DNA of 64,000 nt, taken from NCBI GenBank assembly GCA_040437565.1, contig JBDOQK010000007.1, positions 1 to 64,000 on the forward strand. Direction: 5' to 3'. The stretch is from Albugo candida (taxonomy: Eukaryota). The translations under genes were made by a program, and so were the position numbers. Positions 26,346-64,000 of the stretch are shown here, piece by piece (position 1 is the stretch's first letter; every line of letters starts with the position of its first letter). The notes under the pieces were generated by a model. The model worked only from the letters and a program-made list of their open reading frames with translations. It was not told the DNA's origin and searched no databases.

Positions 26346-26940
26346 GAAAAGGTTGCGTTCCGGATTTGGAAAGGTCTTTCTGCTTCCAATTTCGCAGACA
26401 AAACAGACCAATCCGGGTGCTCCCTATCAGCATATAGCTGCAGTATAGCCTCGATATCCGAGGCTTTCGGCTTTCGGATCTCCACGCGATATTTCGCTCG
26501 AGCTCTAGCCTGGTCCTTACGCAAGGAATCCTGTGACTTGATTATTTCTGCCAAAGTGGGACCTTTGGTGTCGTCCACACTTGCAGTTGCAGTTGCCTCT
26601 GAGTCACCCTGTGACGAGGCAACGACAGTACCGCATTTACCACCGGTACCACATCCGACACCGTTAGTACCGGTATTACCCTGTACCGTCACACTGGGGG
26701 TGAGGATACTTTCCACGTCATCACACAGGGGTGACGACTCATCAACAATCATGCAATTACCCAAAACAGGGTGACTCATGAGGGTTGCCACGTTACTACA
26801 AGTGGACGCTAGCACCCTGGGTTGTGTCGATATGTCGACTTGAACCATTGTTTTCGAGAGGAAAGAGTTGAAAAAAGTTGTTTTTTCGAATTGTTTTTAC
26901 TAAATTGGCGGGTTATTTAGTAGCCGGCAAATTGAGAAGT
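26346..26940 (-). mobile_element. LINE 5' end and ORF1 start (close paralog of 22060-22632)
   Basis: MVQVDISTQPRVLASTCS... nearly identical to ORF 22131-22541; shared 5' terminus. Confidence 0.9.
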
Positions 26941-35689: not shown

Positions 35690-36189
35690 TGGTTTTGAGG
35701 AGATCCTTCCTTACAATTGTCAGAGGTACCGGTTTTTTTGTGTTAGAATTGTAATTATTTTACATTAGATATGGGAATTATTAAATTGTGACTATAAACG
35801 GATATTCCGTGAGTAGACATTTTGAGCACAAACTCTGATATGTCGAATGTGCGAATTTATGAATCAGATATTTATGAATGCCAACATTTGGGAAATTGAG
35901 AGTTGGAGTTGGTGCGTGGTATGCATGACGATAGAGAAGGCTTGCGCATGAGCTAGACTACATCCCTACATAGCCTTGAGCAATGAGTTTTGTGTGATAC
36001 ATATAGACACACTTACCATCTCAATCGCCATTGTCTTTTAGCAAGCAATCTATTCATTTACTATCTATCCACACTTGTGCTACTGATCTCTTATAACGAC
36101 ATTATCACAACCTTTCAACTACTCAATGGCCATAACCTTTAATTCTGCAGCTCACGGTACTTACTTCCTCATCATTGGAGCAAAACGTT

Positions 36190-37720: not shown

Positions 37721-37924
37721 ATTCTCAAAAGCATACGACGCTTTATGATCCGAAAGTGACACAAATGGCTGTGGATCGACGCCAAAAGGAGAAGAAAGCG
37801 CATATACGAACAACAATGAGAATCAGCTGATTTCAGCTCCATACGTTGTGGTACAGAAACAGCAAAAGTAATCCAAAAAAAAATCCATTCTTTCCCCATT
37901 GCATCAGATCTCTTTTTCGACCTT

Positions 37925-40900: not shown

Positions 40901-41617
40901 CAATATCGTCATATTGTTCTCACAAAGCACTTCCGACGTCTATGCATTCCCATTCATATAAACATACTCTCATTGCATTCGACCGAAACACTCACTTTGC
41001 TCGAACTGACAATATCGGATACAAAAGTTGGCCAGTTTTGTGGCCATTCATGCTTCAAAATCTATACAAAGCTCATAATGAGACAAACTATTGCCAGAAA
41101 CCAAATGTCGACGTACCTGAACAAGTAATAAATCCATTTTCTGAATAAAAACCTTTTCTCGACGCAGAATTGCCTCATCAGACGACATCTGATCCACGCA
41201 ATGAGTATCAGCGAATGTGTATACTACAACTCTGTCAACGTACTGAAAGTAATTTGCTGACAACGTAATTTTTGATCCCTTCTTGCTGCTCTTTTGGTAA
41301 TATTTTCCATCGATATCGAATCGCGTCTTCTAATATCTAAACAATTGAATTGGTGTTGAATTGTGGTACGAAACAATGTAAAGTATCAATTTATGTACTT
41401 GTAAGCCGAAATATTTGGTTTGTGGACTTTTCGATTGTTCCAATATATCTGATGCACGCGTCCATGAGTCCTGGTGTTCTTGTAACGCTACCATAATCTG
41501 ATTCGCTATTCTTTGATGCGGGCTTTTGGGATCATTCATACACGTTACGACTTGATCCAATAGAGACACATCAAAAGGGTGTGAAAAATCCAATAGCTTT
41601 TGACCAATTGCTTCCAT
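37925..41617 (-). CDS. XPO1: Exportin-1 (CRM1), multi-exon
   Basis: [81 protein letters not shown]. Confidence 0.97.
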
Positions 41618-41859
41618 TCCTATTTTTCTATCTCCGATTTCCCAAACACTTTTTTTTTTTTTAAAGGTTTGTCGTGTAAATTGATATGCTATCGAGTGTC
41701 CTGAGTTTGTGTGTTACACTACATTTCAACGCATCGACTACCGACCAGTGCTTCCTTGTTGTAATACAATTCATTTTAGAATTGCAATTCACAGTTTTCT
41801 ATTTATCGATCGTATCTTTTTAAGGGTATTGATATCCGCACAAGTCTTTAATTATAAAT

Positions 41860-42889
41860 ATGAAATCAGATGAATTGAAGCATTCTACCCATACAAAACA
41901 CGTGCACGGTGCGCATTCAAGTCACAAGCATGGAATTGTATCCAATCCTGACGACGTGGTGCGTCAATTCAAAAATGTACGCGGTCGCGATCCTACGCCA
42001 TCGGAAGAAAAACAATTGAGAGAACACGGACATATCCATGAGAATCTCGATTCACCAGGGGATTTTCTTGCAAGAGATCCCGTTCAGAATGGCAGAGACT
42101 ATACGTTGCGATCGTTTACAGTCGGAATTGGCGGTCCCGTCGGTAGCGGGTAGGTAGCGTGTCCGGTTGCAGCTATTCACTCTATTTCACATACTTTTAT
42201 TTAGAAAAACAGCTTTGATGTTGGCACTGTGTAAAGCGCTTCGTGAAGACTTTTGCATCGCAGCCGTACGATCTCGATAGGGAGTGTACTTATTTCATGT
42301 GACTGAGCCCGTGTTTGTGTGGTGCTGTTAGGTAACGAATGATATCTTCACACGTGAAGATGGCGAGTTTCTCGTCAGACATGAGGCCTTACCTCAGGAA
42401 AGAATACGTCCTATTGAGACGGGTGGTTGCCCACATGCAGCTATACGTGAAGACATATCAGCAAATCTTGAAGCTTGTGAAGACCTCACACAACAATTCA
42501 ATACTCAAATCGTACTTGTGGAATCGGGAGGAGGTACGCTTGAAAGCTGGTTGTAGAAGAAATCTAATGAATGAATGTCGATAGATAACCTTGCTGCAAA
42601 TTTCAGCCGGGAATTAGCCGATTATATCGTTTATGTGGTCGATGTCGCTGGTGGAGATAAAGTACCACGTAAAGGTGGACCAGGAATCACTCAGGCAGAT
42701 TTGCTTGTGATCAATAAAATCGACCTTGCACCTCATGTCGGAGCCGATTTAGCAGTGATGGATCGTGATGCTAAGAAGATGCGTGGATCTGGTCCAATTG
42801 TGTTCTCTCAAATCACTGCCAACAACGGTGTTCCTGAAATTGTCAAGCATATTCTTAAAGCGTATGAGGCTGAAACTTTGTCAAAATGA
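41860..42889 (+). CDS. ureG: Urease accessory GTPase UreG, three introns
   Basis: His-rich N-terminus; [12 protein letters not shown]-loop, [69 protein letters not shown]. Confidence 0.95.
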
Positions 42890-42949
42890 ATCAAAATTTG
42901 TTGTATTGATACTCACAAATTCAATCCGTAATCAAAAATTAAAGTGTCG

Positions 42950-44079
42950 TCAAATTTGGTGTTTATTGTTCATCTCCATCTCCATATATTGATTTTGTAA
43001 CTTCTTACACACGTACATAAAGTATCCAAGGCCAACATCTGCATGAAAAGGAACGTGAGGCTATCCTGCCCATGCAAATGTACGACTCTCACCAATTGGA
43101 TGGAATTCAAAAGTCCACTTGTATGGTCTTAATCTCGACTTACCCGAACGCAAATCATCGCCCTGCAAGATACAGGCAAGATCGTTATGAGATACAAAGT
43201 AGAAACGATGTGATCGTACCATGAGGAATCGTTTACGAAATAGCGGTTGTTCGAATGAAATCTGGATGAACACACCGGTTACGTCCAACACTTTATGGAT
43301 GCCGCCGCACATAGCAGCAGCTTGAGCAATGATCTCTTCGGATGGATCCCGTACGCTCACTACATCGACCTACGGCAAGTAGTATCACTCGAATAAAGCA
43401 AAAAGCATCATCATGAGTTACCATTATCGCATCCATTGCGGCTTTGTCGATTACAACGTCGAAACTGCCCGTATCAAAAATCTCTGTCAATTTCGTCATA
43501 TCTCCGCATATCCATTTCATATCCGGTTGACACTGAAGCACAAGTAGTGAGAAGACTATACGCTGACTCGATCGATTGGGAAGCGTACATTTTTGTGTTT
43601 TTCGCGCATTCGATCGATGACAATCTCTGAGAAATCGAGATTCGTTATGTTTCTATACCCAGCTTCATACTAAACACACATAAAACCAGCCTAAAGCTTT
43701 CCGAACGCGCAAACGTACCAAATCGGCGCTGAAAGTGGAATTTCCACAGCCAATCTTTTACAATAAGAATCGCATCAGAATACGTATCGCAACAAGTATG
43801 TATCATACCACAAGGATTCGATCATCCATTTGCAAACAGCGTCCCATTATCTGAGCGACATCTTGATACTTTGCCAACCAATCGTACGTTTCTTCGCTAT
43901 ATCCATTTGGTTAGCTCTTCTCGTCGTATCGACAACTTCTCTACTCACCTTTCATATCGCTTATTCCAGTACTCCCGAGTCTTGTACTCTTTGTTGTCTT
44001 TCTACGCGCAAATGAGCAAAACAAAGCACTGCTCTATAACGTATAGTACCGGCACAGAGGTATCACGCGTCGTGCCCAT
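42950..44079 (-). CDS. SAM-dependent methyltransferase, EEF1AKMT4/ECE2-like, multi-exon
   Basis: EYKTREYWNKRY, EETYDWL, IGCGNSTFSADL, NLDFSEIVI, FDVVIDKAAMDAI, FIQISFEQPLFRK. The terminal exons are inferred. Confidence 0.85.
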
Positions 44080-44176
44080 TGAAGAAAAGTGACTATGTCA
44101 ATTGTGTTCCTCGCACTCGATGTCAAGCGAATGAGTGGTCAATAAGTGCGATAAGAGAACAAACGCTGCAGTGATA

Positions 44177-44983
44177 TCAATTGTAAGAAAATCTATTGCC
44201 TGCTTTGATTACATTATATTGCGAGCGATAGATGCTGCCACCTTCTTTCACAACATATTTCTCTCTATCGGATGCAATAGAGAATGCATTATTTTGCATA
44301 GTCGACGTCACGTATCGCTTTGATTCCATGAAAACATTATCCATATATTTGTGAAGATCCAAGACATCTGTCTGAACATAGATAGGGACAGTTGGGTCTA
44401 AATACTCTGCTAAAGTATCGACGAATTCCGACGTGATCACTCTACGTTTCTGGTGACATCTTTTAAACCATGGATCAGGATGAAAGATCGAGATACTTGA
44501 GAGTTTAGATGGCATGTTATCGAGTATCGTGTGTAGCTGATAGTTTATATTTGCGTGTAGAAAGATCAAATTCGTAAGATTCAATTGAGAAGCGATCCGT
44601 TGAGCTTGTTGTATGACAGTTTGACGTATCTCCACGCCAATAAAATTCAATTCGTTTTCATTCGCTTTCGCGACTTGCATCAAATATTCTCCATGCGCAC
44701 ATCTACACAGAATGCACGTCAGACTCGTTTGAATTGCTTAAAATATCACCACAACTCACCCGATATCCAAATGGATGGGAAGCTTTGAATTGTGGAATTT
44801 GTTCCATTCCGGAAATGTATTCAATTTTTTGAAATGATCCGACAGCGGATTTACATGTTGACGGAATCGTTTTTGTGTTTGTTTGCATTTCTGTACATCC
44901 GAATACCTTCTGACTCGATTGCGCACTTTGAAAGCGACTCGCGGCCATGAAATTGTATCGCGTATCAGATGTGAATTGAGCAT
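44177..44983 (-). CDS. trmB: tRNA (guanine-N7)-methyltransferase, bacterial TrmB type, probable organellar transit peptide
   Basis: RFRQHVNPL, IHLDIG, NFIGVEIR, FLHANI, IFHPDPWFKRCHQKRRV, VQTDV; Arg-rich N-terminus; one intron. Confidence 0.9.
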
Positions 44984-45031
44984 TGATTGGTCAGTCGCAC
45001 TTAAGCTCACTCAAAGCTTCAAGCACGCGAT

Positions 45032-45747
45032 ATGGTACGTCTACTGTCAAACTCTCTTACTGACTCGAGTTTCGTTCTTATAATACTTATAATCAGTCTG
45101 TGACGTTACATACGACACACGGCGATCTTAAAATTGAAGTGTATTGTGACACTGCTCCAAACACAGCGACAGTACGTCCCGTAGCAGATGCACCTCAACG
45201 AATTATAACAACTCCATTATGAATTATAGAACTTTTTAGCATTATGTGCTTCAGGTGCATACGATAACACACTATTCCACCGGTGCGAACTGTTTTGCGA
45301 ATTGTGTGTTTTCTAATCGATTTGCATTCAAAGGAACATGAAAGGCTTTATGGTACAAGGAGGAGATCCTACTGGCACCGGCAAAGGAGGCGACAGCGTC
45401 GGAGGCATACCTTTGAATGACGAATTTCATCCTCAGAATCGTGTACGCACCGCTGATCGCATCTATCAAAGTGAGACATTGTTACATGCGCATAGCACAA
45501 TTGCCGCGGAATTGTATCAATGGCCAACAGCGGACCCAATAGCAACAAACAGCAGTTCTTCATCACATATGCACGTCAACCACATCTGAATAACGTGTAC
45601 ACAGTGTTTGGTAAAGTAATCGATGGAATGGAAACCTTGGACGGAATGGAGAAAACACCGGTGGACGCAAAGCATCGTCCTCTGAAAGAAATCATTTTGC
45701 AGAGTATAACGATACATGCAAATCCAATAGCGGAGCTTTCGATTTAG
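45032..45747 (+). CDS. PPIL3: Cyclophilin PPIL3-like peptidyl-prolyl isomerase; first coding exon is ATG only
   Basis: ATG|gt..ag|[83 protein letters not shown]. Confidence 0.92.
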
Positions 45748-45787
45748 AGAATTAAATAAAGTAATAAAGGTCCATTCCACCGCACCT

Positions 45788-48009
45788 ATGTCATTCGAAG
45801 CGCATGTGGCTGCATTCTACGAATCACTCGCCGAAGACAAATTAGAAGATATGTGTGAATCGCTTCACCAAATGCGTCTCGAAGTCGCACAAACGGATAG
45901 CACACAAAACGATCCAACGCAAAAAGTGTACGCGGAGGTACGGCAATGCTTACTTTTACTGAGCATTTTGCGTAATAACACATGACATAAGATATTGCGT
46001 TCGTGTGAGGAGAAATCGCAATCAAAGAAACAGTTGATAAACGAGTACTTCATTCGTTGTTGCAGCGGTACGGAACGTAATGAGATCGCATTGCAAAAGC
46101 TGCTGAGTGCAGTGACAATGTGTTTGGACCTTCAAATGCTCACAGTAAATGACCAAAACATGAAACAAATTCAAACGTTTCTATCGCAACATTTTCAGAG
46201 GAAAGCGACGATCGTTTATGAGAGCGTTTGCAAATGTAAAAATGAAGCTCGTGCCAATGCATTTGGTTACATTGAGCGCAACTTTTACGTCGAGGGTCTT
46301 AATGAGATACTTGGTAGTGTGATGGATGTCGCAAAAGCTCTGTTGGAGATTGTGGGAGGCGGTGAGTATGAGCACACTTTCTATTCACAGTTTATGTCAC
46401 CGGTGCATGCGCTCTGTGTCGAAGTGACACTGGAAATCGTGCATTTGTTTACGATTGAAGGCAGAATGGAAGCATGGGAACGGCGGGCATTAGAGCAAGC
46501 AAAACTACAAGCAAGTAAATCGGATATTCCTATAGAACTCGATGAATCGCTGCAGATGATGGATCTCTTTTTGGACGAAATGACGTGTGTCTTACGACTC
46601 CTTTTCACATATCAAAGCTGCATTCGGAGGTTTAGAAAGAGTGTCACAATCGATCAAAAGGCTCGAAATCAAAACACATCGACTTTACTGCAAATCACTA
46701 CGAGTTTGAATCGGTTTGATCAGAAAACAGCGGAATTGAATGGCATTTATATGCTTTTAGAACGGTTTTATATTTTTCAATCGGTGCACAAAGCGATCGA
46801 AATCGCCGAAGTACAAACGCTCGAAAACAGTATTTTCATTTCCAGTGTCGTGGAGGATACGTCCTTCGTGCTCAGTAAAGTATTAATGCGCGCATCTCAA
46901 TGGTAAGTACGAATGCAATATTTGCTTCATGACTGTGTAAGCGAATGTTATGTAGTATTCAGTATCCAACGACATTGTCTGTTGTGAGCGCAATTGTGGA
47001 TGCATTAGACTCCATGTACCTTCCAGCAATTCTGAAGCTTCCTGACCGTCAATTCGACTTTTCTGCCATTTCCGCAAAATCGGGTCAGAATGTGGTGGTT
47101 TCCAAATCGAAAGATGAAGAAGAGGCTCACAAAAACACCGATCAGAATGAGAATATCTCATTTTCCGACTTGTTGCTCCAAATTGTCGACGAGGATGTGA
47201 CTCGTGAATTACACAAAGAAGCCAAATTAGTAATGGCAATCAATTCCGCGTTTATGAGCTGTCAAGTTGTCTCTGGTCTTGCGAATAAAATTGAAGAAAT
47301 ATCCGATACAGTTTTCCCCCATGAAGCGAAATTACTCGAATGTGTACCGCGACCGATTTCCGAATTGAATGACACATTCATTGAGGTTGTGAACAATGAG
47401 ATCAGCACCATGATACAAAGCACCATCAAGCCTCACATAGAGCCATTACTCCACGACTGGATGGAGACGAAATGCCAGTACATTCTCTCAAGCGCTGAAT
47501 TCGATCGGTTCGGAGTACAACCATCTCCATTAACAGAGTTTATGGAACGATATGTCGCCAAGAATCAAATACTGAAACGATACCAACAATCGTTGTGCCA
47601 CGAACCTTTCCAGTCATTGATGCAAGCTTTTGCAGATGGAATAACGACATGGCTTGAAGATGCCATAATCCAGCTACAACCTGCGATGAATGAATTAGGA
47701 GCATTGCAATTTGAGCGAGAAGTTTCTGATTTGCTGATGAAACTCTCTTCCTTTGTCAAGACCAAAAGCATGCGGAGTTATTTCACACGATTGTTCCATA
47801 TGACGCTGATACTCAATTTCCTACAGCCGGATGATCTCGTCAGTTCGTACCAGTCAAGATCGATTGATGGAGAAGAAGAATTGGACTCTGCTACACTTGT
47901 AGCTCTTTTGCAGATGCGTATTGAATTCCAATCAACGGATTTAGACGATGCCGTTCACAAGTGGAATGAAAAACGTGAACAGTCCAGGCAGAGAATACAA
48001 AGCAATTGA
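45788..48009 (+). CDS. COG4: Conserved oligomeric Golgi complex subunit 4-like; introns 45938-45991 and ~46903-46953
   Basis: SSVVEDTSFVLSKVLMRA and NELGALQFEREV..RSYFTRLFHMTLILN match the COG4 middle and C-terminal patterns. Confidence 0.75.
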
Positions 48010-51239: not shown

Positions 51240-51806
51240 ATAAAGAATGCGTGCCATGAGCATAAAAGTAATTATGGTAATGTTGCATATAGTCGTTATC
51301 GCACTTAACGTACCTAGTCTTAGATACCATTAGGGAATGATAACTTGTAACAGTGAATACAAGAGAGCGTGTAACTTGATTGGTTATTCTTTCAAGTGCC
51401 ATTTTTCACACTATAAAATCAAAATCAACGAACGCAAAGCTATTTAGCATTTGCGAAAAAAGTGTTAATCAAAACTGTGCGATAAGAACTCGTCAACAAG
51501 TAACCTTACAACGATTGTGGCGGTATCTTCAGGAAAGCGTCGTCAATATCACTGGTTGTGGGAGTGGTTCAGAGATATCTCTACTTTGAATTGCTGAGTG
51601 TGAGTTGTGTATCGTGCGAGCTTCAGTGAAGGGTATACAGCAGCACATACAAAAAGCTTTCGTTTCGAACGAATGGGATAACTGTGAAGAGGGCTAACAC
51701 GATTTAGAGGAAGGAAACTTTGATTCACATTAAAGTAGACGACACACACAAACAACAGCGAAAAACTGAAATTTACGACCCTGAAATTCATAAAGAAGTA
51801 GAAAGG

Positions 51807-52386
51807 ATGATCGCACCAACAAATAAACCAACTTTGGTTCAATGGGCTAATCTATCGTTCGTCATTATGGATGCACCGACAAATGATAATCTGCAGTTTT
51901 ATCTTAAAGAATTGAAAAAGTATAATGTCACAGACCTGGTCCGAGCATGTGAAATAACATACGACCGTGAAGCTGTGAATGCGGCAGGGATCAATGTGCA
52001 TGAACTAGAATTTCCGGATGGAGAACCGCCCGATGATGATATCTTTCAACGATGGTTATCACTGGTCGCCGATCGTTTCAAGGAGAATCAACCGAAACCT
52101 ACGCTGTCAAATCGATCTATTGCTGTGCATTGTGTAGCAGGACTGGGAAGGTATGATCGCCACTTTTTATTACTCATCTTGAGCAACCTTTACTGATTCT
52201 TTGATGTTTGTATTTAGAGCTCCTGTTTTAGTGGCAATCGCATTAATTGAAAATGGCGTTGATCCGATATCGGCAGTCGAACATATACGTAAATTTCGTC
52301 GCGGTGCCATTAATCTCCGACAGTTGAAATACTTGGAAAAATACCAACCTCATTTCGGTCAAAAGCAAAAGTGTACAATTATGTAA
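51807..52386 (+). CDS. PTP4A: Protein tyrosine phosphatase type IVA (PRL); intron 52151-52217
   Basis: [53 protein letters not shown]-terminal CAAX box CTIM. Confidence 0.95.
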
Positions 52387-52839
52387 ACCGTCAATTTCAG
52401 CACAAATACTCAAAAGTATTGGTACATATTCATACCATAAAATGAAACTATTCATTCAATCTTGCTACTTGACAGACTTCTTACGTTCACACGCTGCTGA
52501 GTATTTGTGTAATCAGTGAGATACTACTCGACATGAACACATCAAGAGTGCTTTGAACCTCTTCCAAACGGTACCTGAACAATCGAAGGCAAAGGAACGA
52601 GTGAATCCACCTGTGCTGACATTGTCACTCAACCGATATCATTTCGCGTATTATGCACAGATGATCATCCTATAGACTATAGAACCAAGGTGTTATCACA
52701 AAGCAGACTAGCATCAATAGAGGCTATTCAGGTAATGGAGTAGTGAAAAGGATAAGCGCACTAAGTAAGACAATAGTTTGCAATTGAGAGGTGAGTCTTT
52801 TTATTCCTTATAGCCTTACTCGATATATCAATAACGCCA

Positions 52840-54976
52840 TCATTGTCTTGTTGTTCTTGTTTCCAATACTATCTCCATTAAATCCACTACCGTAAGTATT
52901 CCATGTCCGGATTTCACGCGCATTCCTACACGCGCTTCATCTCGTGAATGTGTTGGTATCGCGGAAAAATTGGTCTTTGGACACATTTGCAAGCTATATG
53001 ACCTTGCATCCTGTGACTCTCCATCAAGCGTATCGATGCCTCGATCTTGTAATGAGAGTCGCAGCTGTTGCCGAATTTCAGATGATTTCAGGCCATCTTT
53101 CTTGCTTCGCCTCACAGTAGTGTTGATGCGGAGTAATGCGTTTCCCCTTCCGAAAGTAGTAAATCTTACAAGCTCTTTTGTATAGATCAACGATGATTGG
53201 AAAATGGTATTTGTGACGTTAAATTTCACATTCACTTTCAGAAAACTTTTTGAAGGTCTACTGCATTAAGTGTCTTTCGAATCCAAACGTACTTCAAGAA
53301 TGTACGGACGCTCGCCAGAATTGGGGTTTTCAGGTACGTAGAGTGGAGATGGACAAAATGTGAAAGAAACGCGGTGCAAAACAACGATACGAGAAAGTCA
53401 TCATAGAAGAATACTCTAAAATCAGTCGCCCTCAGATTGTTATACATATCCATGCATTTAAGATTTTATGCACCAACTATCTCTCCCACATCACTTCAAG
53501 CACAACATGGACAGGAGAGTCGAGCCACCTTCACGAACTGGATAGGGCACCGTTCCTGATTTATCATTTTGAATGAAGAGGAACGCTGCTTCATTGCTCT
53601 GTTCGTTATCGAGTTTTAGTTGAATCACATCGAAGGAGTTAGGCTCACAAGCTGGTTCGCTCAGAGCCTTCTTTATCTCTTCGGTAAATTTGAGCGCACG
53701 CAACTTGAAATACAATAGTTGACGTTTGCGGTCGAGGATGGAGTTATAATCTTCTACGTACGCACACACGAAAAAAAAGATTGTTAGAAGCATCAGAGTT
53801 TGGAAAGAATGCAATCTACTTGCCATANNNNNNNNNNNNNNNNNNNNNNNNNNNNNNNNNNNNNNNNNNNNNNNNNNNNNNNNNNNNNNNNNNNNNNNNN
53901 NNNNNNNNNNNNNNNNNNNNNNNNNNNGGCTGATCTTTGGGGTTGTCTAAATACAACCTATTTGTATAAAATACCAACCAATAGAATGCGTAGAATTCAA
54001 AATGCACTATGATTTCACCAATTCTTTTCGCACTCGCCGAGGGGAATAATTCCATCACGGCTTCCACGACATCTTTAGATTTGCCTCCTTCGATTCGTTT
54101 CAAAATCTTTTCGCATGGATCGGATTCATGTAACACTTTGGTTTCCATCGCCCATTCAACACAATGGTGCACACGCAATTGTATCAATGCGTTCGTGTTC
54201 AAAGAATCGACTACTACCCTTTTCGGCAGATTTTTTGCTTCCTGTACCATGGGGTCAAGGGGAGGTTTGGTCGTATCCGTCAGATTCCGGGTTGCTATAG
54301 GTATCACTTGAAGTTTGGAAAATGTCTCGAATAGTATTGCAAAAGCCCTCATCGCATTGGTAAATTCAAAGAATGCAGTGCTCAGTTTCCTTTTTGGTGA
54401 TTCGGGCAATCTGTATCTCGCTGTTTTTAGACCAGCTTCAAGTTGATCAATTGGAACGGGTTCAAGCTCATACGTTGCTTTGGTGCGGGTTACCAAATTT
54501 TCTTGTATTTTATCAGTGTATAAGAGTGCACGCAACTTCAACTCTAAACACAATCTTTTTTCTTCAGCATACTCATTTTCGTCTATTAATCGTAGGAAGA
54601 ATAGATTGTCAGTAGGATCAGAGTCTACAAAGAGCGCACCTTGATTACCCGCTCTTGTACCAGCTTTATGGAAGGCCTCGGAAACTTTTATGAATTGCAA
54701 CCAGAAAACTTTGTATGTGATCAGCCATTTCTTGCAAACCTCCTCTCTTTTTCCGATTACGGCTTTGATCGACGGAAATAGTACTCGCAGGATTTGTCGC
54801 AGCTCTTCAGCACCTGTACCTTCCGTAATTTCTTCCAAATTTTTCATTGACGGATCGGATGCAGAAGAAACCAGAGAAACAACTTGAGGTTTAGAAAGCA
54901 CCAATGCGTTCTGCCCACTCAAGACAAGCGTCAAGAACGCAAAGCTTAAGAGGTTCCGGATATAGGCGTAGATCAT
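52840..54976 (-). CDS. Large modular secreted protein (effector candidate) spanning a gap; 3' part interrupted by stops/frameshifts
   Basis: Signal peptide MIYAYIRNLLSFAFLTLVLSG; repeated LFP..Y..(F/Y)WL..FF..KLRAL..T..I module; ORFs 53816-54976, 53491-53826, 53238-53453 and 52840-53235 are collinear. Confidence 0.6.
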
Positions 54977-55327
54977 ACTGGTTTATGTTTTGCCCGGCGC
55001 GAATTGGGTGGTCAGGGGATTTAAAAAGTTAGAGAAAACGTTTGCCTTACGCCACTCATCAAGAGTGGTATGCTAAATAATGAGTGACTGGNNNNNNNNN
55101 NNNNNNNNNNNNNNNNNNNNNNNNNNNNNNNNNNNNNNNNNNNNNNNNNNNNNNNNNNNNNNNNNNNNNNNNNNNNNNNNNNNNNNNNNNNCGGATATAG
55201 GCGTAGATCATACTGGTTTATGTTTTGCCCGGCGCGAATTGGGTGGTCAGGGGATTTAAAAAAGTTAGAGAAAACGTTTGCCTTACGCCACTCATCAAGA
55301 GTGGTATGCTAAATAATGAGTGACTGG
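54957..55327. repeat. 136-bp exact duplication flanking an N gap; probable scaffolding artefact
   Basis: 54957-55092 = 55192-55327. Confidence 0.88.
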
Positions 55328-56329
55328 TTTCGAACGTCATTACGTATACACGTTATATGCTATATGTAGGTCCGTTGATTTGTGGGTGACGGGAAGTATC
55401 AGCGAGAGTAGATGTTGCGTTGCGACATCCATATCGTCATTATACTCTGGTCTAATTCTGATGTCCATAACACCAACTTCTATGTCGAGTAGAGAAGTTC
55501 GTGAATATAACTCATTTGTCACTGACAAAATAAAAATTACAGCGCTGTCCTTAAAGGCTACGGATAGTCTTGACTGCTTCTACGTAACAGCTCTCTTTCG
55601 CATAGTCAATTGCCGCCATNNNNNNNNNNNNNNNNNNNNNNNNNNNNNNNNNNNNNNNNNNNNNNNNNNNNNNNNNNNNNNNNNNNNNNNNNNNNNNNNN
55701 NNNNNNNNNNNNNNNNNNNTAAGAAATGAAGCTATTTTCATTTGGCAATATTAGAATTTAGTGCTATGTGAGCTTTTGCGCGAGTTCACTGACTCATATT
55801 GTTGTTACTGAGGAAAATTCCGCGCCTGAACAAGAAAGTTAACTTGGCAGCAATGAAGTCGCTTCTTGCTGTGGCGATCCTACTTCCCACATCGGAAGAC
55901 TGTCCCGACGAAATCGCGATAACCGGTCATGGTATTTTGATTGTAAAAGTATGACGCCTAACAGCGCCTTGATCAGCAATCAAAAATTATTGGTAGCAAT
56001 TGGAGCGAGGCCAAGGAATGGAAGCGATGTCCTGATTATTTCACTTTTGCTCGGACGGCCAAGAACCAATTTATAATCAAATGCAGACTAGTAGCAATAG
56101 AGGCTAGTACGATTTTGCTTGGATGACATGCTAAGCGCGGTGAGTACGAAAGTCGGTATGCATTCGAAAGTGAGTCGTTTGTCCCTTTAGCTTATCTCGA
56201 CATATTAGCAACTCCATCGCTGTCATCTTCTTGTTCCTTTCGGCATTACTTCCACTACCGTGAAGTCTTCCAGGTCCGATTATGGTGTTCATTGGCACAC
56301 GCGCTTCATGTCATGAAGGCGTCTGCTAT

Positions 56330-56715
56330 CACATAAACATTGGTACTTGGATGCACTTGCAAGATGTCAACGATGACGTTGCGATGTAAACATCCTTAAT
56401 TCTCCATCGAACGCCTCGATGCCTCTTCATCCCATTGCCCTGGTGTTCGGAAGTTGCTGGATTCATTGTATTGTATCCTGCATCCCATATCGGTAATTCA
56501 AGCGGTGCTCTTCCTTGATCAAACGCCCACAGTCGGTTTCCATACGCTTCTTGTTCTGGTGTGCTGCCTTATTAGATTGATAAATACTTTTGAAGAACTG
56601 TGCGACGACTTCGACAGAAGAGGCATCGAGGCGTTCGATGGAGAATTAAGGATGTTTACATCGCAACGTCATCGTTGACATCTTGCAAGTGCATCCAAGT
56701 ACCAATGTTTATGTG
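56330..56715. repeat. Perfect inverted repeat, 99-bp arms (56330-56428 / 56617-56715), 188-bp spacer
   Basis: Direct reverse-complement match read base by base. Confidence 0.95.
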
Positions 56716-56879
56716 TGTTCGGTTTATGAAAAGTCAAAATAACGGCGCAAGTGGCAGCTCACGTCAATTGGATGTCGCACTCTTACTCAAGCGATCCAAG
56801 ACTCGCACGAGATAGTGCGACATCCAATTGACGTGAGCTGCCACTTGCGCCGTTATTTTGACTTTTCATAAACCGAACA
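56716..56879. repeat. Perfect inverted repeat, 66-bp arms (56716-56781 / 56814-56879), 32-nt loop
   Basis: Direct reverse-complement match; abuts the previous repeat with no gap. Confidence 0.95.
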
Positions 56880-58052
56880 AATAATAACAATGCTTGAAAT
56901 TTTTTTAAGCTGTATTAAGGATTTTAGACTAGGATGTACTCGGCATGTTGGGTGGGTACATTAGAAGGGCTCGTATCTCGATGGTAGATTTTAGGGCATC
57001 CATTTTGAGTTTGACACATTCTTCTTTGTGTTGTAGAATTTCCAGATTTACGTCTACGTACGCAAACATAGCAGTGGAGACTGTCAGTAGTGTCAGTCTA
57101 ATCTCAGTGTAACATACTTACCGTGCGAGTAATTCGATGATAGGTGCTCTTCGTCGTATTTCTTGCGAGTTGTATAAAAAATGATCCAGTGCTCTGCGTA
57201 TTTTTTCAAATCATCGCTAGCGGTACGAATTGATTCGGATGACACATCCATGCCGAATATAGTCCTCANNNNNNNNNNNNNNNNNNNNNNNNNNNNNNNN
57301 NNNNNNNNNNNNNNNNNNNNNNNNNNNNNNNNNNNNNNNNNNNNNNNNNNNNNNNNNNNNNNNNNNNNATAAGTGGCTGAGATTGAACGCTGATCAAATC
57401 TAACCGTTCTACTTCGATGTCCTATTTCTGTTATTAGTTATTTTGCACGGAGTTAAATGTCCTATCAAAGTGATTATTGAATAATTTTCTCTTCCAGTTT
57501 CTCTGCTTTGCTTTTTAAGTTTGTACATGACATTACATAAACTACACGTATTTGCACCTTAACCCAGAACAGGAGTGTCTAAATCACAAGGCAATGTTCC
57601 GCATGTCTATTACTGAAGCTCGTGACTATGACCAACTGATCACTTTTGTCAAACTAGAAAAAACAGCGCTGTCCTGAGAGATTACTTATGCGTCAATTGC
57701 GCCGCACAGACAATGATACTATGGTCACATATAGCTGAAAGGTGTCGATATTATTGGACTTAGATTAAAGACTTTACTGATACACCTAGCTATCTTATGT
57801 CACATACACACGCACACCAAAGTTACACGAGCTACCTGTGAGCATTGATAATATTTGGTGCTGTTTACTTATTGCGGCTACGTGAACCCACCGCAATACG
57901 AGGCTCTGCGCAGCTTGTGATCAATAAAAATGTCCTAGAATAACTTTTTGAGCACTTCAGATGAAATTTGGAAAGTGAGATATATTAAATGGAGGAGGTC
58001 CTTAGTTCACTTTACTAGCTAGTCTAAGCCTTCTCGTACTATACGCCCACAG

Positions 58053-58073
58053 CCACTTCTCAATTTGCCGGCT
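58053..58073 (+). promoter_or_regulatory. Oomycete Inr/FPR-like core promoter motif at the LINE 5' terminus (also at 22614-22632 and 26922-26940 on the minus strand)
   Basis: CCACTTCTCAATTTGCC fits the oomycete YCAYTYY-N-CAWTTTNYY consensus. Confidence 0.6.
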
Positions 58074-61000
58074 GCTACGCACCTCGCAAACGTGATTCAA
58101 AACAACAAACAACCACCTCTCAACCAAACCAACGTTTTTGACTACTATTCTCTCCAACAGAATGGCTCTATCGACATTTCGCATCTACCCGTCGTTACGT
58201 CGTCCGACGAATCACAACTCGTGCACCTGTTTCAACTGACAATGTTTCTTTGTATGCGGCCAATGCAGCCAATCAGATTTCACGGAATCTGAAACGGTCC
58301 AATCAGATGTGACCATGACTGCCGATTAGTCCGCCTAAGGAGATTCCTTCCATCCCTATGGACATCGATGACCCAGCGACGCCATCATCTCCTTTATCCA
58401 CAAAAAGACCGGTTCATATCGATAACCGACCTACCTTGGCGGATATTTTGAAGGGTCGGGAGGAAATGCGCAAGGATAAAGCGGCCAAAAAAGCAACCTG
58501 GAAGGTTGAAATGCCAAAGCCTTTAGCTGCAGAGCTACGCGCTATTGAACAAATTTTCGAAGCGGGCCATCCAAGTTGGGAGGTTTTGTCTGCTCGCTTA
58601 ACTGCAGCAAAACCTGTCGCGTTACCGAGTGCCAAATTCTCGGTTGTGTTGGAGACTGGTCAAGCGCTGGTTCGAACCCCACCAGCGCACATTTTGCAAT
58701 CCTTTGTTCGAGATCACGGTAATGTGATCGTTGACGAGCTTTTGAAGCTGGAAAGATTGGCCAATTGCAAAATTACCTGGTGGTAATTTGAGACTACTCG
58801 TTACCGAAGAGGAAGTCTACCAGAAATGGCCCATGAAAAAGTTACGATTCTCGGTAACACCTACTCTTNNNNNNNNNNNNNNNNNNNNNNNNNNNNNNNN
58901 NNNNNNNNNNNNNNNNNNNNNNNNNNNNNNNNNNNNNNNNNNNNNNNNNNNNNNNNNNNNNNNNNNNNGTATGAGAACTTTCGTGAAGCAGTGGCTTCCA
59001 AAAGACTTGCAATGTCGACTTGGAGAGTTTATTTCCGAGGCACCAGCTGTCCTGAGTAGCTCATTGTTGGCGGAAAAGTTTATGAGCAAATATATATCGA
59101 GGGGAGATACTATTTGGCTCGAGGCAAATTCTCTCCACTCCCGGTTGATTCGTTGAGGATGGGTCAGCGCAGTCCGTAATGCTTACTGCTGCCGGTTAAA
59201 ACTCCTCAACCGAATCAGCCACCGACAAAAAACTTCTTTTCATCGGCTAAAAGTCATCCCGTGAAGTCTAAACCAATATCAAAACAAGGCAAAAGCAACG
59301 TCGACATGCCTGACGTTTCTAAAATAAGTCTCAAAAACAAGCTTCCTGCTCGTAAAGCCACTTCCGGTCGCAACGTTGCTGATGGAAAAGCATCCGAAGT
59401 TACCAAAACCGGATCTACCTCAGCAGGATATTCCCTCCGTTGTTCCGGATTTCAACAAAAATACAGAAAACATTGCAGCAAAAGCAACGTCAAAGTCTAC
59501 TGCAGACACGTGGACTCCGATTCGAACTCGCAACAAGCGTAATCGATCATTTTATCGCTTTCAGAGTTTACTGAGCAACGCCCCTCCCAAATCATTGGAG
59601 GTTTTGCTACAAGCAATTACTTTAATTTGCTTGGCTCGGTAGACGTGGATTTCGTGAAAATTGACGTAACAACGAAAGACGACTTTGGCAAGAGGTACCA
59701 GATTGTATCATCGCAGCTTGTCGTTAACAATGATCTGGACAATTCCATATAAGGATCTCACTTCATCAAGAAAAACCACACCCGGATCGAAAAGGACGAT
59801 CGTCCTCCTCGTGTGGCAGAAGTGGTGTATTTCCTAATTCAAGATGTGGAAACAGCTCAGACACCTCCTTGAACAAAGTATGCGATCGTGAAGGATGTTC
59901 ATGTTGCGAAAGAAAGCAAGCATGCTGTATTCACATCCAACGGAGACAGTATTCTCCACTTTGCATTGGATCACCCTATAGCACTGCATGGAGTGCTAAA
60001 ACGTTGCATGAGGTCCAATGACCCATGCTTGGAGCAAGTGGTGCGAGTCCACACAATAAATCGTGTATTGGCAGCATCCGAACCGAATTCGGGTACCACA
60101 TTCAGCAAAAAATGGTCGAAGAAAGTCGATGGTTCCGTTTCGGCAGTTCGAAATCTTATTCTCGCAACGGTCGGCAACTGGTTGACCACATCAGTGGAAG
60201 TGGAAGAATTGACACGAGCAACATTCTCGCTTTCGTTCTTCGAGCTAATGTTGCACCATATATCATAGCGACCACTGGATCCAGTACGTTACTGGTCAAC
60301 CAGTGCTGTGGATTCCAACTCACCACTGTCGTCTGCTTCACACGAATGTGTTGTTGCACATTTTGCGTTCACCGCTGGGAACACTTTGCCTGAGCGGGTG
60401 GTTTGACGCACAGTGAAGGAGTCCAATTTTTGATGACTTGGTGTAGTTACAGTCATCGACTCTTCTTCTTATAGACAAAGCTTCCATCCTACAGCTGAAG
60501 GAGGAAGACGGAGCTCACAAACTCGTCGTTGGACCCCTTTCAGTTTATTACTAAGGGAAGCTCATCGGATTTCAATTCTTGGACCAATAAATTTCTGTCA
60601 ATACAAACGGATCAAAAAGAATGGTCACCTTGCCATCCAACATACCTTTTCCAAATACGCACTTTGTTGCTTGCAGGGTACACGTTTTCGTGATCGTCAG
60701 CACCTGGAGACATTTCGTTTTCACCTGGCATCGACCTTCAACACTAAATCTTTTGTCAGTGATACGAATGGTCTTCATTCTCACCCCTCTCGGGAACGAG
60801 TAATCGGTGTAATGACTATTCTCCGAAACAATTTCCTGGTTTTCAAACTGCGGAAGTAGTACCCAATATCACGGTTCAAGATCGTTATCTGGTTATTCGT
60901 TTGGTGGTTCATGAAGCACCAGTATACGTCCACAACGTTTATGCTCCTGTGGATTCAACGGAACGAAAAACTTTTTTCGATCAGCTTCCAACTGGATCGT

Positions 61001-64000
61001 TCGAAGCAAAAGCATCACACATCGTTTGTGTTGATCTCAATACAACTCTGTCCAAGTTTCGATCGTTCTAGTGGTGCTTCTCGACACGAACCGAGTCGGT
61101 TCTCGTGTATGGAATGGATTTCAAAATTGGGTGTTATTGATGCGTGGCGGCAACAGCATCCGGAAGAACTTGTCTTCACGGGACCTCAGCCAAGACGTAT
61201 TCGGCTGGATTACATCCTTTAGTCGAAAAATCTGTTCCGTACAATTTATAACGATTCCAGTAATGCCATCCTTCCTCACACGGGGGACCATTTGGCAAAT
61301 GCACTCACGTTTGCAAATCCGAGCCAACTTCAGGGCCGTGGTTACTGGAAATGTCCTCTCTCATTATTCGAGTACCCAGTTATCACAGAAGCTATCGAAG
61401 CGGAAGAAGATCCTATTCTAGAAAAGCTTCGTGCTTCTTCATTACCGGGAAAGGATTGGGAACGTTGGAAGAAGTATATGAAGCGTTTACTTTGATAAAT
61501 TTACAAGAAGCTTCGACGTCAAGAGGAAGATGAGCTCGTTCGAGCTCAACTGGAGTTGGAACATGCTGCATCCGCTTATAGCATGTCGAATCAAGATCAA
61601 GAAAAGCAGGTGTACAAAGCAGCACTCCATGCTTATCCTCAACGAGTGACGAGCTCCTCTAAGTACAATTAAGACTCCGTGTTCGACCACCAGATGAAGA
61701 CTATGGAGAAATCATCCCGATATTTATTCGCTCCGTCGATTCAACTATTCATCGTGTTCCTTTGGAAGAAGTACTCCTTCCGAATGGCGAATTGTCAGCG
61801 AATCCAATCGACATCACACTTCAGTTCACTGATCACTGGGGTGGAAGTATGGATGATAAAGCAAGCTCGACTGAAGTCCTTGTGTTCGAAAACAACAAAC
61901 GCTGACCGACTCAATAACGAGGGCATTACCCAGCTCTGATGAGTCGTTCTTTTCTGCTACGTTAACCAAATCGGAAATGGTTGGAGATTTAAAAAGTATG
62001 CGCGGACACTCATCACCTGGAATGGATGGATTGCCGGCAGCATTATACCAACTCACTCCGAGCGTTTTTGGTGAATGTTTGCAAATTGTCTTTGACGGAC
62101 AACTTGGTTGAGGCTCTTTGCTGCGCTCTCAGCGTAGTTCGGCAATCCCGTTGCTTTACAAAAAAGGATCTCAAACAGAACCTGGCAACTATCGTCCTAT
62201 CGCATTGATATGCGTGGATGTAAAAGTGCTGTCGAAAGTACTTGCCTATCGACTCCAGAAAGTGCTTCCGAAACTAATACACGAAGATCAAAAAGCATTT
62301 CTGAGAGGCAGATCCATCCACCATCACATTTGGTACACTAGTGATCTACAGGATTTGATCACTCATCGTGGTGAATTTTGAGGAAGCGTACAATCGAGTG
62401 GACTGGTCGTACATGTTTGCAGTGCTTTCGAAAATGAATTATGAAAATTCGGTTATTAAGTGGATAAAGGTTCTATACACCAACACGACTGTTTCGTTGT
62501 TGTTGAATGCAACGCTTTCACCGAGGATCCATCTCGGGGAGTGAAACAAAGTGATCCACTCTCTTCGCATTGCTCTTTCTAACAAATCGAGCCGCTGGGT
62601 AATTTATTGCGGAGGACCGAGGCCCTGGTATTTTTATCACTCTAGTGGATACATCAACCAGTTTATTCTTTGCGGACGACTCGACTTTGTTATCGTCTTC
62701 GCTCGGTGGAGTGGGAGCGCAGCTTGATATCGTTCAACATTATTGTGATGGTTCAGGAGCAAAGTTAAATCTGTCCAAGTCGACTTTACTTTCTCTTAAT
62801 CGTCGTCAAGTATGTCAGCCGTTCGCTTTGGTGAAAGTTCTATCACGTTGCGAGTCGGGCAAGTATCTAGGAGCTCCTTTCAGTCAATCACTAGTGGGTG
62901 ATTTGATGATTGAATTCCTAGAAGATCGTTGCTATGGTGGTTTTCGTCAGTGGTTCGTCTTGCAAGAACGCTACGTGGACGTTTACTGGTGGCGCATACT
63001 ATGTTTTTCTCAAGATTATGGCATTTTACGGCACATTTTCATATCCCGCAGCATTTACCGCGACGCTGGCAATCGATGTTGAATCGATTTGGGTCTAGTC
63101 GAAATTACGAGCGGGATGCAACTCACATGCAACTATTTCGATCGGAACTTTATATCTCACTTATTCACAAGGTGCTTTACAGGTTCCGATGATCGATATT
63201 CATTTAAAGAAGCAACGAATACAATTCCTCCAACAATTTGCGCTCCATTCAAGTACGGCTGTTCCGAGCAACTGGACACTGACTGGAATGGAGATGGTGG
63301 AGACCATCTTACCCAACTTTGGACCGTTCAAAACGCTTGATATCTTAACGATATCACCTCGTAGGCATTCTACCATGGTTCGTTGGAATGTAGCGTCATC
63401 ATGGTGGAAGTAGACGTGCGTTTGGTGGAGTCAAAGTAAATGGGAGCTCACACCGACGACTTTGTCTTCGCAGGAGCAATACATAGTTATGTTAAATGCT
63501 CCTGTGGGTTTTTATATGGATAATCATCTTCACTTTGAGTAGCGAAAACGTTCTACTAGTGCTGTTGCTCATCCTCGATGTATGGGAATGTTTCCAGAAC
63601 CTGCGCGTACTTTTCGAATGTAGTTCGCTCAAGCGTTTCGTATCCGTTCTCTGCATGACTTGTTAGGTGGAAGATTAAGTTGGTTCGATTCGTTTTCAGA
63701 GTTTGTCTTGCGTTTCAGTACGAACTCAGATGGCACTCCAGCTGAAGTTTCCACGACCAAGCTTGTGCGACGATTATACGTCGAAGCTAATCAAATTCTT
63801 CGTCGACTTCAACCAGAGGTTGTGTTGTTGTGTCCTGAGCATTCACTGAACGGAGCTCATCCGTTTCATCTTGGCATCCAAGTTTCGGATAAGAAAGTTT
63901 TGTTTTCAAATATTCCTCGGAATCAACTCTTTCGAGTTATTAGTATAGCAGAACCACCGGATAAGCCGCACCCAATGTTGCTGCACTTACCGGAGAGGGA
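58055..64000 (+). mobile_element. Near full-length degenerate L1/Tx1-like LINE (ORF1 from ~58162, APE ~60590-61300, RT ~61950-62950), running off the window
   Basis: VHNVYAP, LGVIDAWR..RLDYI, SPGMDGLP, GNYRPIALICVDVKVLSKVLAYRL, GVKQSDPLS, LFFADDSTL. Confidence 0.93.

What the first reader, a model, noticed from the sequence alone, without database searches (positions are those of the whole stretch)
56330..56879. Double perfect hairpin (99-bp + 66-bp arms) inside a dead effector-like paralog
Seen: the layout is A-spacer-A'B'-loop-B with no mismatches, inside an otherwise decayed pseudogene. The central 165 bp (56617-56781) is the reverse complement of B joined to A. That is the junction a circle or tandem duplicate of 56330-56879 would make, inserted in inverted orientation. 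Perfect arms in a degraded gene imply a recent event. Inference: if real and transcribed, it would form long dsRNA from effector-family coding sequence. That could be a source of siRNAs against closer family members, or a novel sRNA locus; oomycetes have Dicer/AGO and silence effector genes. Possible origins are replication template switching, eccDNA re-integration, or an MDA/mate-pair chimera.
Basis: partly seen in the sequence, partly recalled or inferred. Interest (0 to 1): 0.78.

Follow-up and report, generated by a model that had tools for sequence, protein, structure and literature searches.

The report
Double perfect hairpin from inverted flank copies
A 165-base insertion in a decayed gene copy of the white-rust pathogen Albugo candida is made of two inverted copies of the sequence on either side of it, which looks like the scar of one broken-and-repaired DNA site rather than a designed RNA gene, and it still needs confirmation in independent reads.

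Summary
A 56330-56428 and A' 56617-56715 are 99 nt and 100% complementary. B' 56716-56781 and B 56814-56879 are 66 nt and 100% complementary. The loops are 188 and 32 nt. This is the only local inverted repeat of note in the 64 kb.

The locus lies in the decayed second copy of a tandem unit. That unit encodes an orphan, secreted-looking protein in an Albugo candida scaffold.

No circle or tandem junction is needed. The central 165 bp sits at a single insertion point. Its left half is an inverted copy of the left flank and its right half an inverted copy of the right flank. That layout is expected if both ends of one break fold back, copy themselves and are then joined (snap-back, SD-MMEJ-like synthesis), though at an unusually large and error-free scale.

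An artefact cannot be excluded. The locus is on a 1549-bp contig between two placeholder gaps in a loosely scaffolded draft, and no independent sequence could be reached. I found no evidence for or against transcription or small RNAs, and no matching target exists elsewhere in the window.

Confidence that the event is real and arose in vivo is about 0.55. Interest is modest.

The parts
56330..56428 (.). Arm A (99 nt): the original left-flank copy and template for A'
   Evidence: 100% complementary to 56617-56715. Colinear with the paralog: a single HSP 56062-56425 ~ 52681-53042 runs across the L|A boundary.
56429..56616 (.). Loop S (188 nt) between A and A'
   Evidence: No inverted or direct similarity to its surroundings and no detectable similarity to par1. 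Open on the minus strand in frame with A (79-aa frame 56329..56568).
56617..56715 (.). A': left half of the 165-bp insertion, an inverted copy of A
56716..56781 (.). B': right half of the 165-bp insertion, an inverted copy of B
   Evidence: exact reverse complement of 56814-56879
56782..56813 (.). Loop P (32 nt) between B' and B. It holds the stop codon (56785-56783, minus strand) of the annotated gene model P0003.
56814..56879 (.). Arm B (66 nt): right-flank copy and template for B'. It is read on the minus strand as part of the last exon of P0003.
56880..56892 (.). First 13 nt after B. They match the first 13 nt of A at 8 of 13 positions, a possible imperfect homology at the point where copying stopped.
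   Evidence: the repeat finder extends the B pair to 79 nt at 94%. 8 of 13 or better occurs in 0.7% of random 13-mer pairs from the contig or window. Four junction comparisons were made; the other three gave 2, 3 and 4 of 13.
56062..57251 (-). par2: decayed second copy of the tandem unit (C-terminal remnant of a family gene plus its downstream region). It contains the hairpins.
52681..53827 (-). par1: the corresponding region of the first unit, downstream of the intact gene
53816..54976 (-). Gene 1: intact 355-aa orphan protein with a hydrophobic N-terminus, interrupted in the window by a placeholder gap
   Evidence: 99.4% identical over 350 aa to P0001. No Pfam family and no Atlas lead.
55620..55719 (.). 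100-N gap bounding the hairpin contig on the left
57269..57368 (.). 100-N gap bounding the hairpin contig on the right

Best explanation
The double hairpin is the scar of one recent DNA break-and-repair (or stalled-synthesis) event in the Albugo candida genome.

Before the event the sequence read L-A-S | P-B-R. At the point between S and P, the 3' end on the left folded back on its own strand and copied A, adding A'. The 3' end on the right (the other strand) folded back and copied B', adding B, which reads B' on the top strand. The two extended ends were then joined. That gives L-A-S-A'-B'-P-B-R, exactly what is seen.

The 165-bp insert is therefore two templated, inverted copies, each taken from its own side of the break. 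The junction A'|B' is the repair joint, not a circle or tandem junction. The hairpins are a by-product and no function is implied.

Shown: the geometry, the perfect identity, that L.A is the ancestral adjacency, and that the structure is unique in the window. Inferred: the break, the fold-back synthesis, the polymerase and the in vivo origin. A replication-based version with three successive template switches gives the same product and is not distinguished here.
For: 1. Geometry. Each half of the insert is the exact reverse complement of a segment on its own side, 188 nt to the left and 32 nt to the right. Passages of PMC2943611 (Figure 6 legend and model section) and the S7 Fig legend of PMC5068794 describe this as the signature of snap-back synthesis: an insertion in reverse-complement configuration relative to the flank in cis. 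[quoted passage not shown]
2. L.A is ancestral. One alignment to the paralog (56062-56425 ~ 52681-53042) crosses the 56329/56330 boundary. So A is the original and A' the copy, and B.A cannot be the ancestral adjacency.
3. All three novel junctions (S|A', A'|B', B'|P) must lie on one physical molecule that rejoins the two sides of the same site. Random library ligation or independent chimeric reads would not do this (inference).
4. The 13 nt after B resemble the 13 nt that would have been copied next, at 8 of 13 (p about 0.007 per comparison, four comparisons made). This is the kind of imperfect homology expected where a copying strand lets go.
5. It is not a repeat family or a recurrent artefact. 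No other copy of A, B, S or P exists in the window. No other local inverted repeat of 16 nt or more exists apart from two short palindromes. There is no match in 72,556 plasmid records.
Against: 1. No independent sequence of this locus was reachable, so none of the three junctions is verified outside this assembly. The only database protein touching the region (P0003) stops inside loop P. It probably comes from the same assembly, because its model starts right after the gap.
2. The locus is on a 1549-bp contig between two 100-N placeholders in a locally fragmented, loosely scaffolded draft.
3. The scale is atypical for polymerase-theta repair. In C. elegans inserts average about 10 bp, about 85% are primed within 10 bp of the break, snap-back is a minor class, and the error rate is about 1 in 30 bp (passages of PMC5068794). 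Here 165 bp were copied without error from templates 32 and 188 nt away, so another polymerase or a replication-based switch would be needed.
4. No primer microhomology is visible at the inner ends of the arms. The S and P ends match at 3 of 13 and 4 of 13. It could be hidden inside the arms, which is untestable without the pre-insertion allele.
5. Similarity to par1 stops 3 nt before the A|S boundary, and S, P and B show no similarity to par1. S and P may therefore not be ancestral flanks but further filler, which would make the event more complex than stated.
Confidence: 0.55

Rival explanations
1. Artefact. The 165-bp insert does not exist in the organism's chromosome. It comes from a chimeric molecule made during DNA amplification or library preparation, or from a mis-assembly or gap-filling step, and was built into a short contig.
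For: - The contig is only 1549 bp and is bounded by two 100-N gaps. Neighbouring contigs are 1164, 428 and 1500 bp.
- The scaffold has other construction faults. A 136-bp, 99.3% identical overlap was left unmerged on both sides of gap 55092-55191. A 100-N gap inside gene 1 stands for only a few codons.
- Perfect identity of the arms is also what an in vitro copy would give.
- Strand-displacing amplification is known to make inverted chimeras. This is recalled knowledge and was not checked in a paper here.
Against: - Three different novel junctions must co-occur on one molecule, and that molecule returns to the correct side of the same site. Single chimeric reads or random ligation do not predict this (inference).
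- The structure is unique in 64 kb, whereas a systematic assembler or library fault should recur.
- An assembler needs repeated read support for each junction.
Confidence: 0.3
2. A circle (eccDNA) or tandem duplicate of the A...B segment formed a B.A junction. A piece spanning that junction was re-inserted in inverted orientation.
For: The central 165 bp is indeed the reverse complement of B followed by A. If circularised, the whole 550 bp would be a dumbbell with a 165-bp stem and loops S and P (my reading of the layout).
Against: - It needs three separate steps: circle or duplication, excision of exactly the junction piece, and inverted re-insertion inside its own parent.
- It does not explain why the insert lies so that each half faces its own template.
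- The inverted-triplication (ODIRA-type) version predicts B immediately left of A and A immediately right of B. Instead L is colinear with the paralog, and R matches A at only 8 of 13 positions.
- No second copy of the unit exists in the window.
Confidence: 0.05
3. Functional hairpin-RNA locus. Whatever its origin, the locus is transcribed. Its 99-bp and 66-bp perfect stems are diced into small RNAs that act on family members or on the host. This is a claim about function and is compatible with the best explanation of origin.
For: - Very stable predicted RNA stems.
- An annotated gene model on the minus strand ends inside loop P, so a read-through 3' end would carry both hairpins.
- Albugo has Dicer-like and RDR homologues (passages of PMC4791657).
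- Template switching is reported to create whole perfect hairpins in one event, and some of these became miRNA genes in primates (abstract of PMC10710096).
Against: - No expression or small-RNA data were available.
- There is no exact match longer than 11 nt between the arms and any other part of the window, and the nearest paralog is about 67% identical. No target is visible.
- Rfam matches to MIR821 and MIR8007 score 67.6 and 63.3 bits against gathering scores of 249 and 195. They reflect only a long hairpin.
- The PMC4791657 passages note deviations in the RNase III motifs of A. laibachii DCL2.
Confidence: 0.1
4. Mobile element. The A-S-A' (386 bp) and B'-P-B (164 bp) units are two adjacent foldback or MITE-like elements.
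For: Each unit alone looks like a terminal-inverted-repeat element with a loop.
Against: - Each is a single copy in the window.
- No target-site duplication is visible at 56329/56330, 56715/56716 or 56879/56880 (read by eye).
- Arm A is native sequence colinear with the paralog.
- Arm B is read as part of an exon in an annotated gene model.
Confidence: 0.02

Closest known systems
Snap-back synthesis-dependent microhomology-mediated end joining (SD-MMEJ), i.e. templated insertions of polymerase-theta-type end joining (PMC2943611 and PMC5068794, passages read; PMC4912351, search listing only)
   Same: The insertion at a junction is the reverse complement of flanking sequence on the same side. 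Synthesis from both sides of a break and complex inserts are described. There is possible imperfect homology where copying ended.
   Different: Size (99 + 66 bp against about 10 bp), distance of the template from the junction (32 and 188 nt against mostly under 10 bp), no errors (against about 1 in 30 bp), and no visible primer repeat. Whether Albugo has polymerase theta was not tested. One search and the passages read in PMC9779921 did not say.
Template-switch mutations that create perfect hairpins in one event (abstract of PMC10710096 read; bioRxiv 10.1101/2021.04.15.439925, search listing only)
   Same: A single mutational event yields a perfectly paired stem from previously unstructured sequence. 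It is a possible birthplace of hairpin-RNA genes.
   Different: As I recall that model, one contiguous nearby segment is copied in inverted orientation. Here the insert joins two segments that lie 220 nt apart before the event, one on each side. The stems are also much longer than miRNA stems.
ODIRA / inverted triplications through hairpin-capped intermediates (abstract of PMC10766183 read)
   Same: Forward-inverted-forward order, with loops at both inverted junctions.
   Different: ODIRA triplicates one and the same segment. That would require B left of A and A right of B, which is not the case. The scale is kilobases, not tens of bases.
Inverted-duplication origin of young plant MIRNA and hairpin-RNA loci from their target genes (recalled, not checked in a paper here)
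   Same: Long, near-perfect inverted repeats derived from coding sequence of a gene family.
   Different: There the arms match an expressed target gene. Here no target with matching sequence is seen in the window, and expression is unknown.

Membership tests
Snap-back templated insertion at a repair junction (SD-MMEJ / TMEJ) | The insert is the reverse complement of flanking sequence on the same side of the junction | tested here: met
   A' is the exact reverse complement of A (left flank). B' is the exact reverse complement of B (right flank).
Snap-back templated insertion at a repair junction (SD-MMEJ / TMEJ) | Template within a few bases to tens of bases of the break, and insert of a few to tens of bases | tested here: not met
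   Templates lie 188 and 32 nt from the insertion point and the insert is 165 bp. The reference values are about 10 bp inserts and about 85% primed within 10 bp (PMC5068794 passages).
Snap-back templated insertion at a repair junction (SD-MMEJ / TMEJ) | Short primer repeat at the start of the template, and microhomology at the final joint | tested here: inconclusive
   No pairing beyond the arms at the inner ends (3 of 13 and 4 of 13). There is 0 nt of overlap at 56715/56716. An 8 of 13 similarity exists between the start of A and the sequence after B. The pre-insertion allele is needed.
Snap-back templated insertion at a repair junction (SD-MMEJ / TMEJ) | Error-prone copying (polymerase theta) | tested here: not met
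   0 mismatches in 165 copied bases, against about 1 error per 30 bp (PMC5068794 passages).
Snap-back templated insertion at a repair junction (SD-MMEJ / TMEJ) | The organism encodes polymerase theta | not tested
   No proteome search by organism is possible with these tools. One literature search and the passages of PMC9779921 gave no statement for oomycetes.
Single template-switch mutation (one contiguous inverted copy) | The inserted segment is the inverted copy of one contiguous nearby segment | tested here: not met
   The two source segments A and B are not adjacent. They flank the insertion point on opposite sides.
ODIRA-type inverted triplication | The same segment is present forward, inverted and forward | tested here: not met
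   The left neighbour of A is not B, since L is colinear with par1. The right neighbour of B matches A at only 8 of 13 positions.
MITE / foldback transposon | Multiple copies, target-site duplication, and arms not derived from local unique sequence | tested here: not met
   Single copy in 64 kb. No duplicated flanks. Arm A is colinear with the paralog. The whole genome could not be searched.
Known miRNA families (Rfam MIR821, MIR8007) | Score at or above the family's gathering threshold | tested here: not met
   67.6 bits against 249 and 63.3 bits against 195.
Small-RNA-producing hairpin locus | Transcription and size-specific small RNAs from the arms | not testable with these tools
   No expression data could be reached.
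Assembly or library chimera | Junctions absent from independent reads, and similar structures recurring in the same assembly | tested here: inconclusive
   Recurrence is not seen in the window. The three protein searches found no independent ORF across a junction.

The most novel reading that the evidence does not exclude
A single fold-back repair event in Albugo candida created, at one stroke, a tandem pair of long perfect hairpins in the 3' part of a still-transcribed remnant of a secreted-protein gene family. This newborn locus is diced into small RNAs. It would be a caught-in-the-act example of de novo birth of a hairpin-RNA gene in an oomycete, by a two-sided, high-fidelity snap-back mechanism much larger than the templated insertions described so far.
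Probability: 0.08. Interest if true: 0.6.

Novelty: new member of a known kind. Interest (0 to 1): 0.35.

Why it matters
If real, this is a clean natural example of both ends of one break making inverted copies of their own flanks before being joined. Its size (99 + 66 bp, error-free, templates 32-188 nt away) lies well outside the usual templated insertions. That would bear on which polymerases do such synthesis in oomycetes, whose break-repair pathways are little studied. It also shows how a perfectly paired long hairpin can appear in one step inside fast-evolving, effector-type gene clusters, giving raw material for RNA silencing. If it is an artefact, it is a useful warning: short contigs between placeholder gaps in this assembly can carry invented structures.

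Tried and rejected
1. Independent evidence for the junctions through predicted proteins.
- The 73-aa plus-strand frame 56594-56815 crosses S|A', A'|B' and B'|P. It found 1 hit among 3 candidates: P0003, which covers only the B part and ends in loop P.
- The 92-aa frame 56400-56675 crosses A|S and S|A'. It had 1 candidate and none scored.
- The 79-aa minus frame 56332-56568, searched against 1.84 billion representatives, gave 1 hit. P0004 is a 1642-aa repeat protein at 31% identity over 33 residues in 6 stretches. I regard it as spurious and dropped it.
- No answer either way.

2. Using par1 as an outgroup for the pre-insertion state.
- At the DNA level, S, P, B and the 94 nt after B score no better than shuffles against 53000-53700.
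- At the protein level, the three minus-strand frames score within the shuffle range.
- The middle of the two paralogs is too diverged to help.

3. Circle, dumbbell and ODIRA readings: rejected on the L.A colinearity.
4. Mobile element: rejected.
5. Known RNA families: only sub-threshold generic hairpin matches.
6. Vector or plasmid origin of S or P: no match in 72,556 plasmid records.
7. Family assignment of the intact neighbour. There was no Pfam family (11 proteins scanned, 4 without any match including gene 1 and the par1 frame). Only 2 relatives were found among 2606 candidates, both unnamed. The Atlas gave no lead.
8. The eukaryote genome itself, other Albugo assemblies, reads and expression data could not be searched.

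Full report
**Observation**

- The repeat finder reports arms 56330-56428 and 56617-56715: 99 nt, 100% complementary, 188 nt apart. It reports a second pair, 56703-56781 / 56814-56892, 79 nt at 94%.
- A direct test shows A equals the reverse complement of A', and B (56814-56879) equals the reverse complement of B' (56716-56781), with no mismatch. The bases just outside the arms do not pair.
- The layout is A(99) - S(188) - A'(99) B'(66) - P(32) - B(66). The central 165 bp is the reverse complement of B followed by A.
- As a single strand the region folds into two long perfect stems: RNA -366.7 kcal/mol, z = -30, 0 of 100 shuffles as good; DNA -235.3 kcal/mol, z = -31.6.
- It is unique in the window. 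A scan for local inverted repeats (at least 16 nt, at most 800 nt apart) finds 4 pairs. Two are this locus and two are 17-21-nt palindromes at 86-88%. The window-wide scan finds only distant, diverged repeats besides it.

**Setting**

The window is a eukaryotic scaffold with 15 runs of exactly 100 N. It carries housekeeping genes: exportin-1/CRM1, an RNase PH exosome subunit, COG4 and a proteasome subunit. In one search, 11 frames were scanned, 7 had a match at E <= 0.01, and 5 of those were above the curated cut-off.

The hairpins lie on a 1549-bp contig (55720-57268) between two gaps. Its neighbours are 1164, 428 and 1500 bp. The gaps are placeholders:
- The gap inside gene 1 stands for only a few codons (P0001 reads ...DQPYPYGK across it).
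- The gap at 55092-55191 is flanked by a 136-bp, 99.3% identical overlap that was never merged.

On the minus strand there is an intact 355-aa gene (54976 to 53816).
- It has no Pfam family and no Atlas lead.
- It has only 2 relatives among 2606 candidates, both unnamed.
- Its N-terminus is hydrophobic and signal-like. That is my reading of the sequence and no predictor was run.

Downstream of this gene lies par1 (53827 to 52681), itself a degenerate partial copy of the family. A second, decayed unit lies at 57251 to 56062. It has a C-terminal remnant resembling residues 329-355 of gene 1, followed by par2.
- 56974-57096 matches 53674-53796 at 58.5%.
- 56062-56425 matches 52681-53042 at 67.5%.
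- Upstream similarity 55482-55551 ~ 57603-57675 fits a tandem duplication of the unit.

The hairpins sit in par2. 'Dead paralog' is therefore right. 'Effector-like' is a guess.

**Organism**

The 73-aa plus-strand frame across the insert found one named protein, P0003: 'hypothetical protein ABG067_001484 [Albugo candida]'.
- P0003 is a three-exon model on the window's minus strand (57251-57123, 57054-56959, 56908-56786). Identity is 100%, 31 of 32 and 100%.
- It ends at the TAA at 56785-56783 inside loop P, so it says nothing about what lies beyond P.
- The model begins immediately after the gap at 57269-57368, and gene 1 (broken by a gap here) has no named counterpart. P0003 therefore most likely comes from this same assembly, and I do not count it as independent.

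**What the structure is**

The key facts are two. First, the alignment to par1 runs without a break across the L|A boundary (56062-56425 as one HSP; 56062-56363). So L.A is the ancestral adjacency, A is the original and A' is the copy. Second, each half of the 165-bp insert is the inverted copy of a segment on its own side of the insert.

This is what results if a break (or arrested synthesis) between S and P is processed on both sides in the same way:
- The left 3' end (...A-S) folds back and copies A, adding A'.
- The right 3' end on the other strand (...B'-P' in its own sense) folds back and copies B', adding B, which reads B' on the top strand.
- Joining the two extended ends gives L-A-S-A'-B'-P-B-R.

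All three novel junctions are explained, and the junction A'|B' is simply the repair joint.

The literature describes the small-scale version.
[quoted passage not shown] A weak extra sign comes from the 13 nt after B. They match the 13 nt that would have been copied next (the start of A) at 8 of 13 positions. Random 13-mer pairs reach that in 0.7% of trials. I made four such comparisons and the other three gave 2, 3 and 4 of 13.

**Where it does not fit the known family**

The passages of PMC5068794 give these values:
- Average insert about 10 bp.
- About 85% of priming within 10 bp of the break.
- Snap-back as a minor class.
- About 1 error per 30 bp.

Here 165 bp were copied without error from templates 32 and 188 nt away, and no primer repeat is visible at the inner ends. 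So this works like snap-back repair but is not a typical polymerase-theta product. A more accurate polymerase, or three successive template switches at a replication fork, would be needed. Whether Albugo has polymerase theta was not tested. One search and the passages read in PMC9779921 did not say.

A second caveat concerns the flanks. Similarity to par1 stops 3 nt before the A|S boundary, and S, P and B have no detectable similarity to par1 at the DNA level or protein level. S and P might therefore be further filler rather than ancestral flanks.

**Rivals**

1. Artefact (0.3).
- For: the short contig between placeholder gaps, the other faults of the scaffold, and the lack of any independent sequence.
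- Against: three novel junctions must lie on one molecule that returns to the same site, and the structure is unique in 64 kb.
2. Circle or tandem junction re-inserted (0.05).
- It is formally equivalent and needs more steps.
- Its triplication form (abstract of PMC10766183) predicts B to the left of A and A to the right of B, which is not seen.
3. Mobile element (0.02).
- Single copy, no target-site duplication, and native arm sequence.
4. Functional small-RNA locus (0.1, compatible with the origin proposed).
- For: stable stems, an annotated model ending in loop P, Dicer-like and RDR genes in Albugo (passages of PMC4791657), and the precedent that template switching can create whole hairpins, some of which became miRNA genes (abstract of PMC10710096).
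- Against: no expression data, no exact match over 11 nt between the arms and anything else in the window, and Rfam hits far below threshold (67.6 against 249 bits and 63.3 against 195 bits).

**Age**

There are zero differences in 165 paired positions. If the arms evolve neutrally, this implies a pairwise divergence below about 1.8% at the 5% level (inference from exp(-165 d)). For scale, the nearest independent relative of gene 1 (P0001) differs at 2 of 350 residues. The event could therefore be specific to an isolate or race.

**What stayed unchecked**

- Reads, other Albugo assemblies, the rest of this genome, and expression or small-RNA data could not be reached.
- The three protein searches across the junctions were uninformative.

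**Verdict**

The best explanation is a two-sided fold-back templated insertion at one break. That makes it a new, unusually large member of a known kind of repair scar, and it awaits confirmation of the junctions in independent data.

Noticed in passing
window 54957-55091 and 55192-55327 (flanking gap 55092-55191): The two contig ends on either side of this 100-N gap are 99.3% identical over 136 bp. The gap is really an unmerged overlap, and the start of gene 1 is artificially duplicated (the repeated peptides are visible).
   Followed up: partly
window 53828-53927: A 100-N gap inside gene 1. The 99%-identical protein P0001 shows that only a few residues (about 3 codons) are missing, so the 100 N is a placeholder.
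   Followed up: yes
window 1613-2156 and 62866-63997: Inverted copies of a repeat several hundred bp long, 81-89% identical and about 60 kb apart. This is probably a dispersed repeat or transposon fragment.
   Followed up: no
window 58046-58106, 26905-26949, 22581-22632: A short (45-52 nt) sequence containing a GCCGGC core recurs three times in mixed orientation at 73-90% identity. Its nature is unknown.
   Followed up: no
window 35039-48009: A block of conserved housekeeping genes lies a few kb from the fast-evolving orphan cluster: proteasome subunit (35039-35710, -), RNase PH exosome subunit (36143-37720, +), exportin-1/CRM1 (38366-40939, -) and COG4 (45986-48009, +).
   Followed up: partly
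window 51708-52196 (+): A frame with a weak, sub-threshold match to a dual-specificity phosphatase-type family (20.5 bits against a cut-off of 27). By eye it looks like a PRL/PTP-type phosphatase exon.
   Followed up: no
window 57251-56783 (-), protein P0003: The public annotation calls a 116-aa 'hypothetical protein' here. Its first exon is the C-terminal remnant of a family gene, and its model starts right after an assembly gap. It is probably an ab initio model built over a pseudogene.
   Followed up: partly
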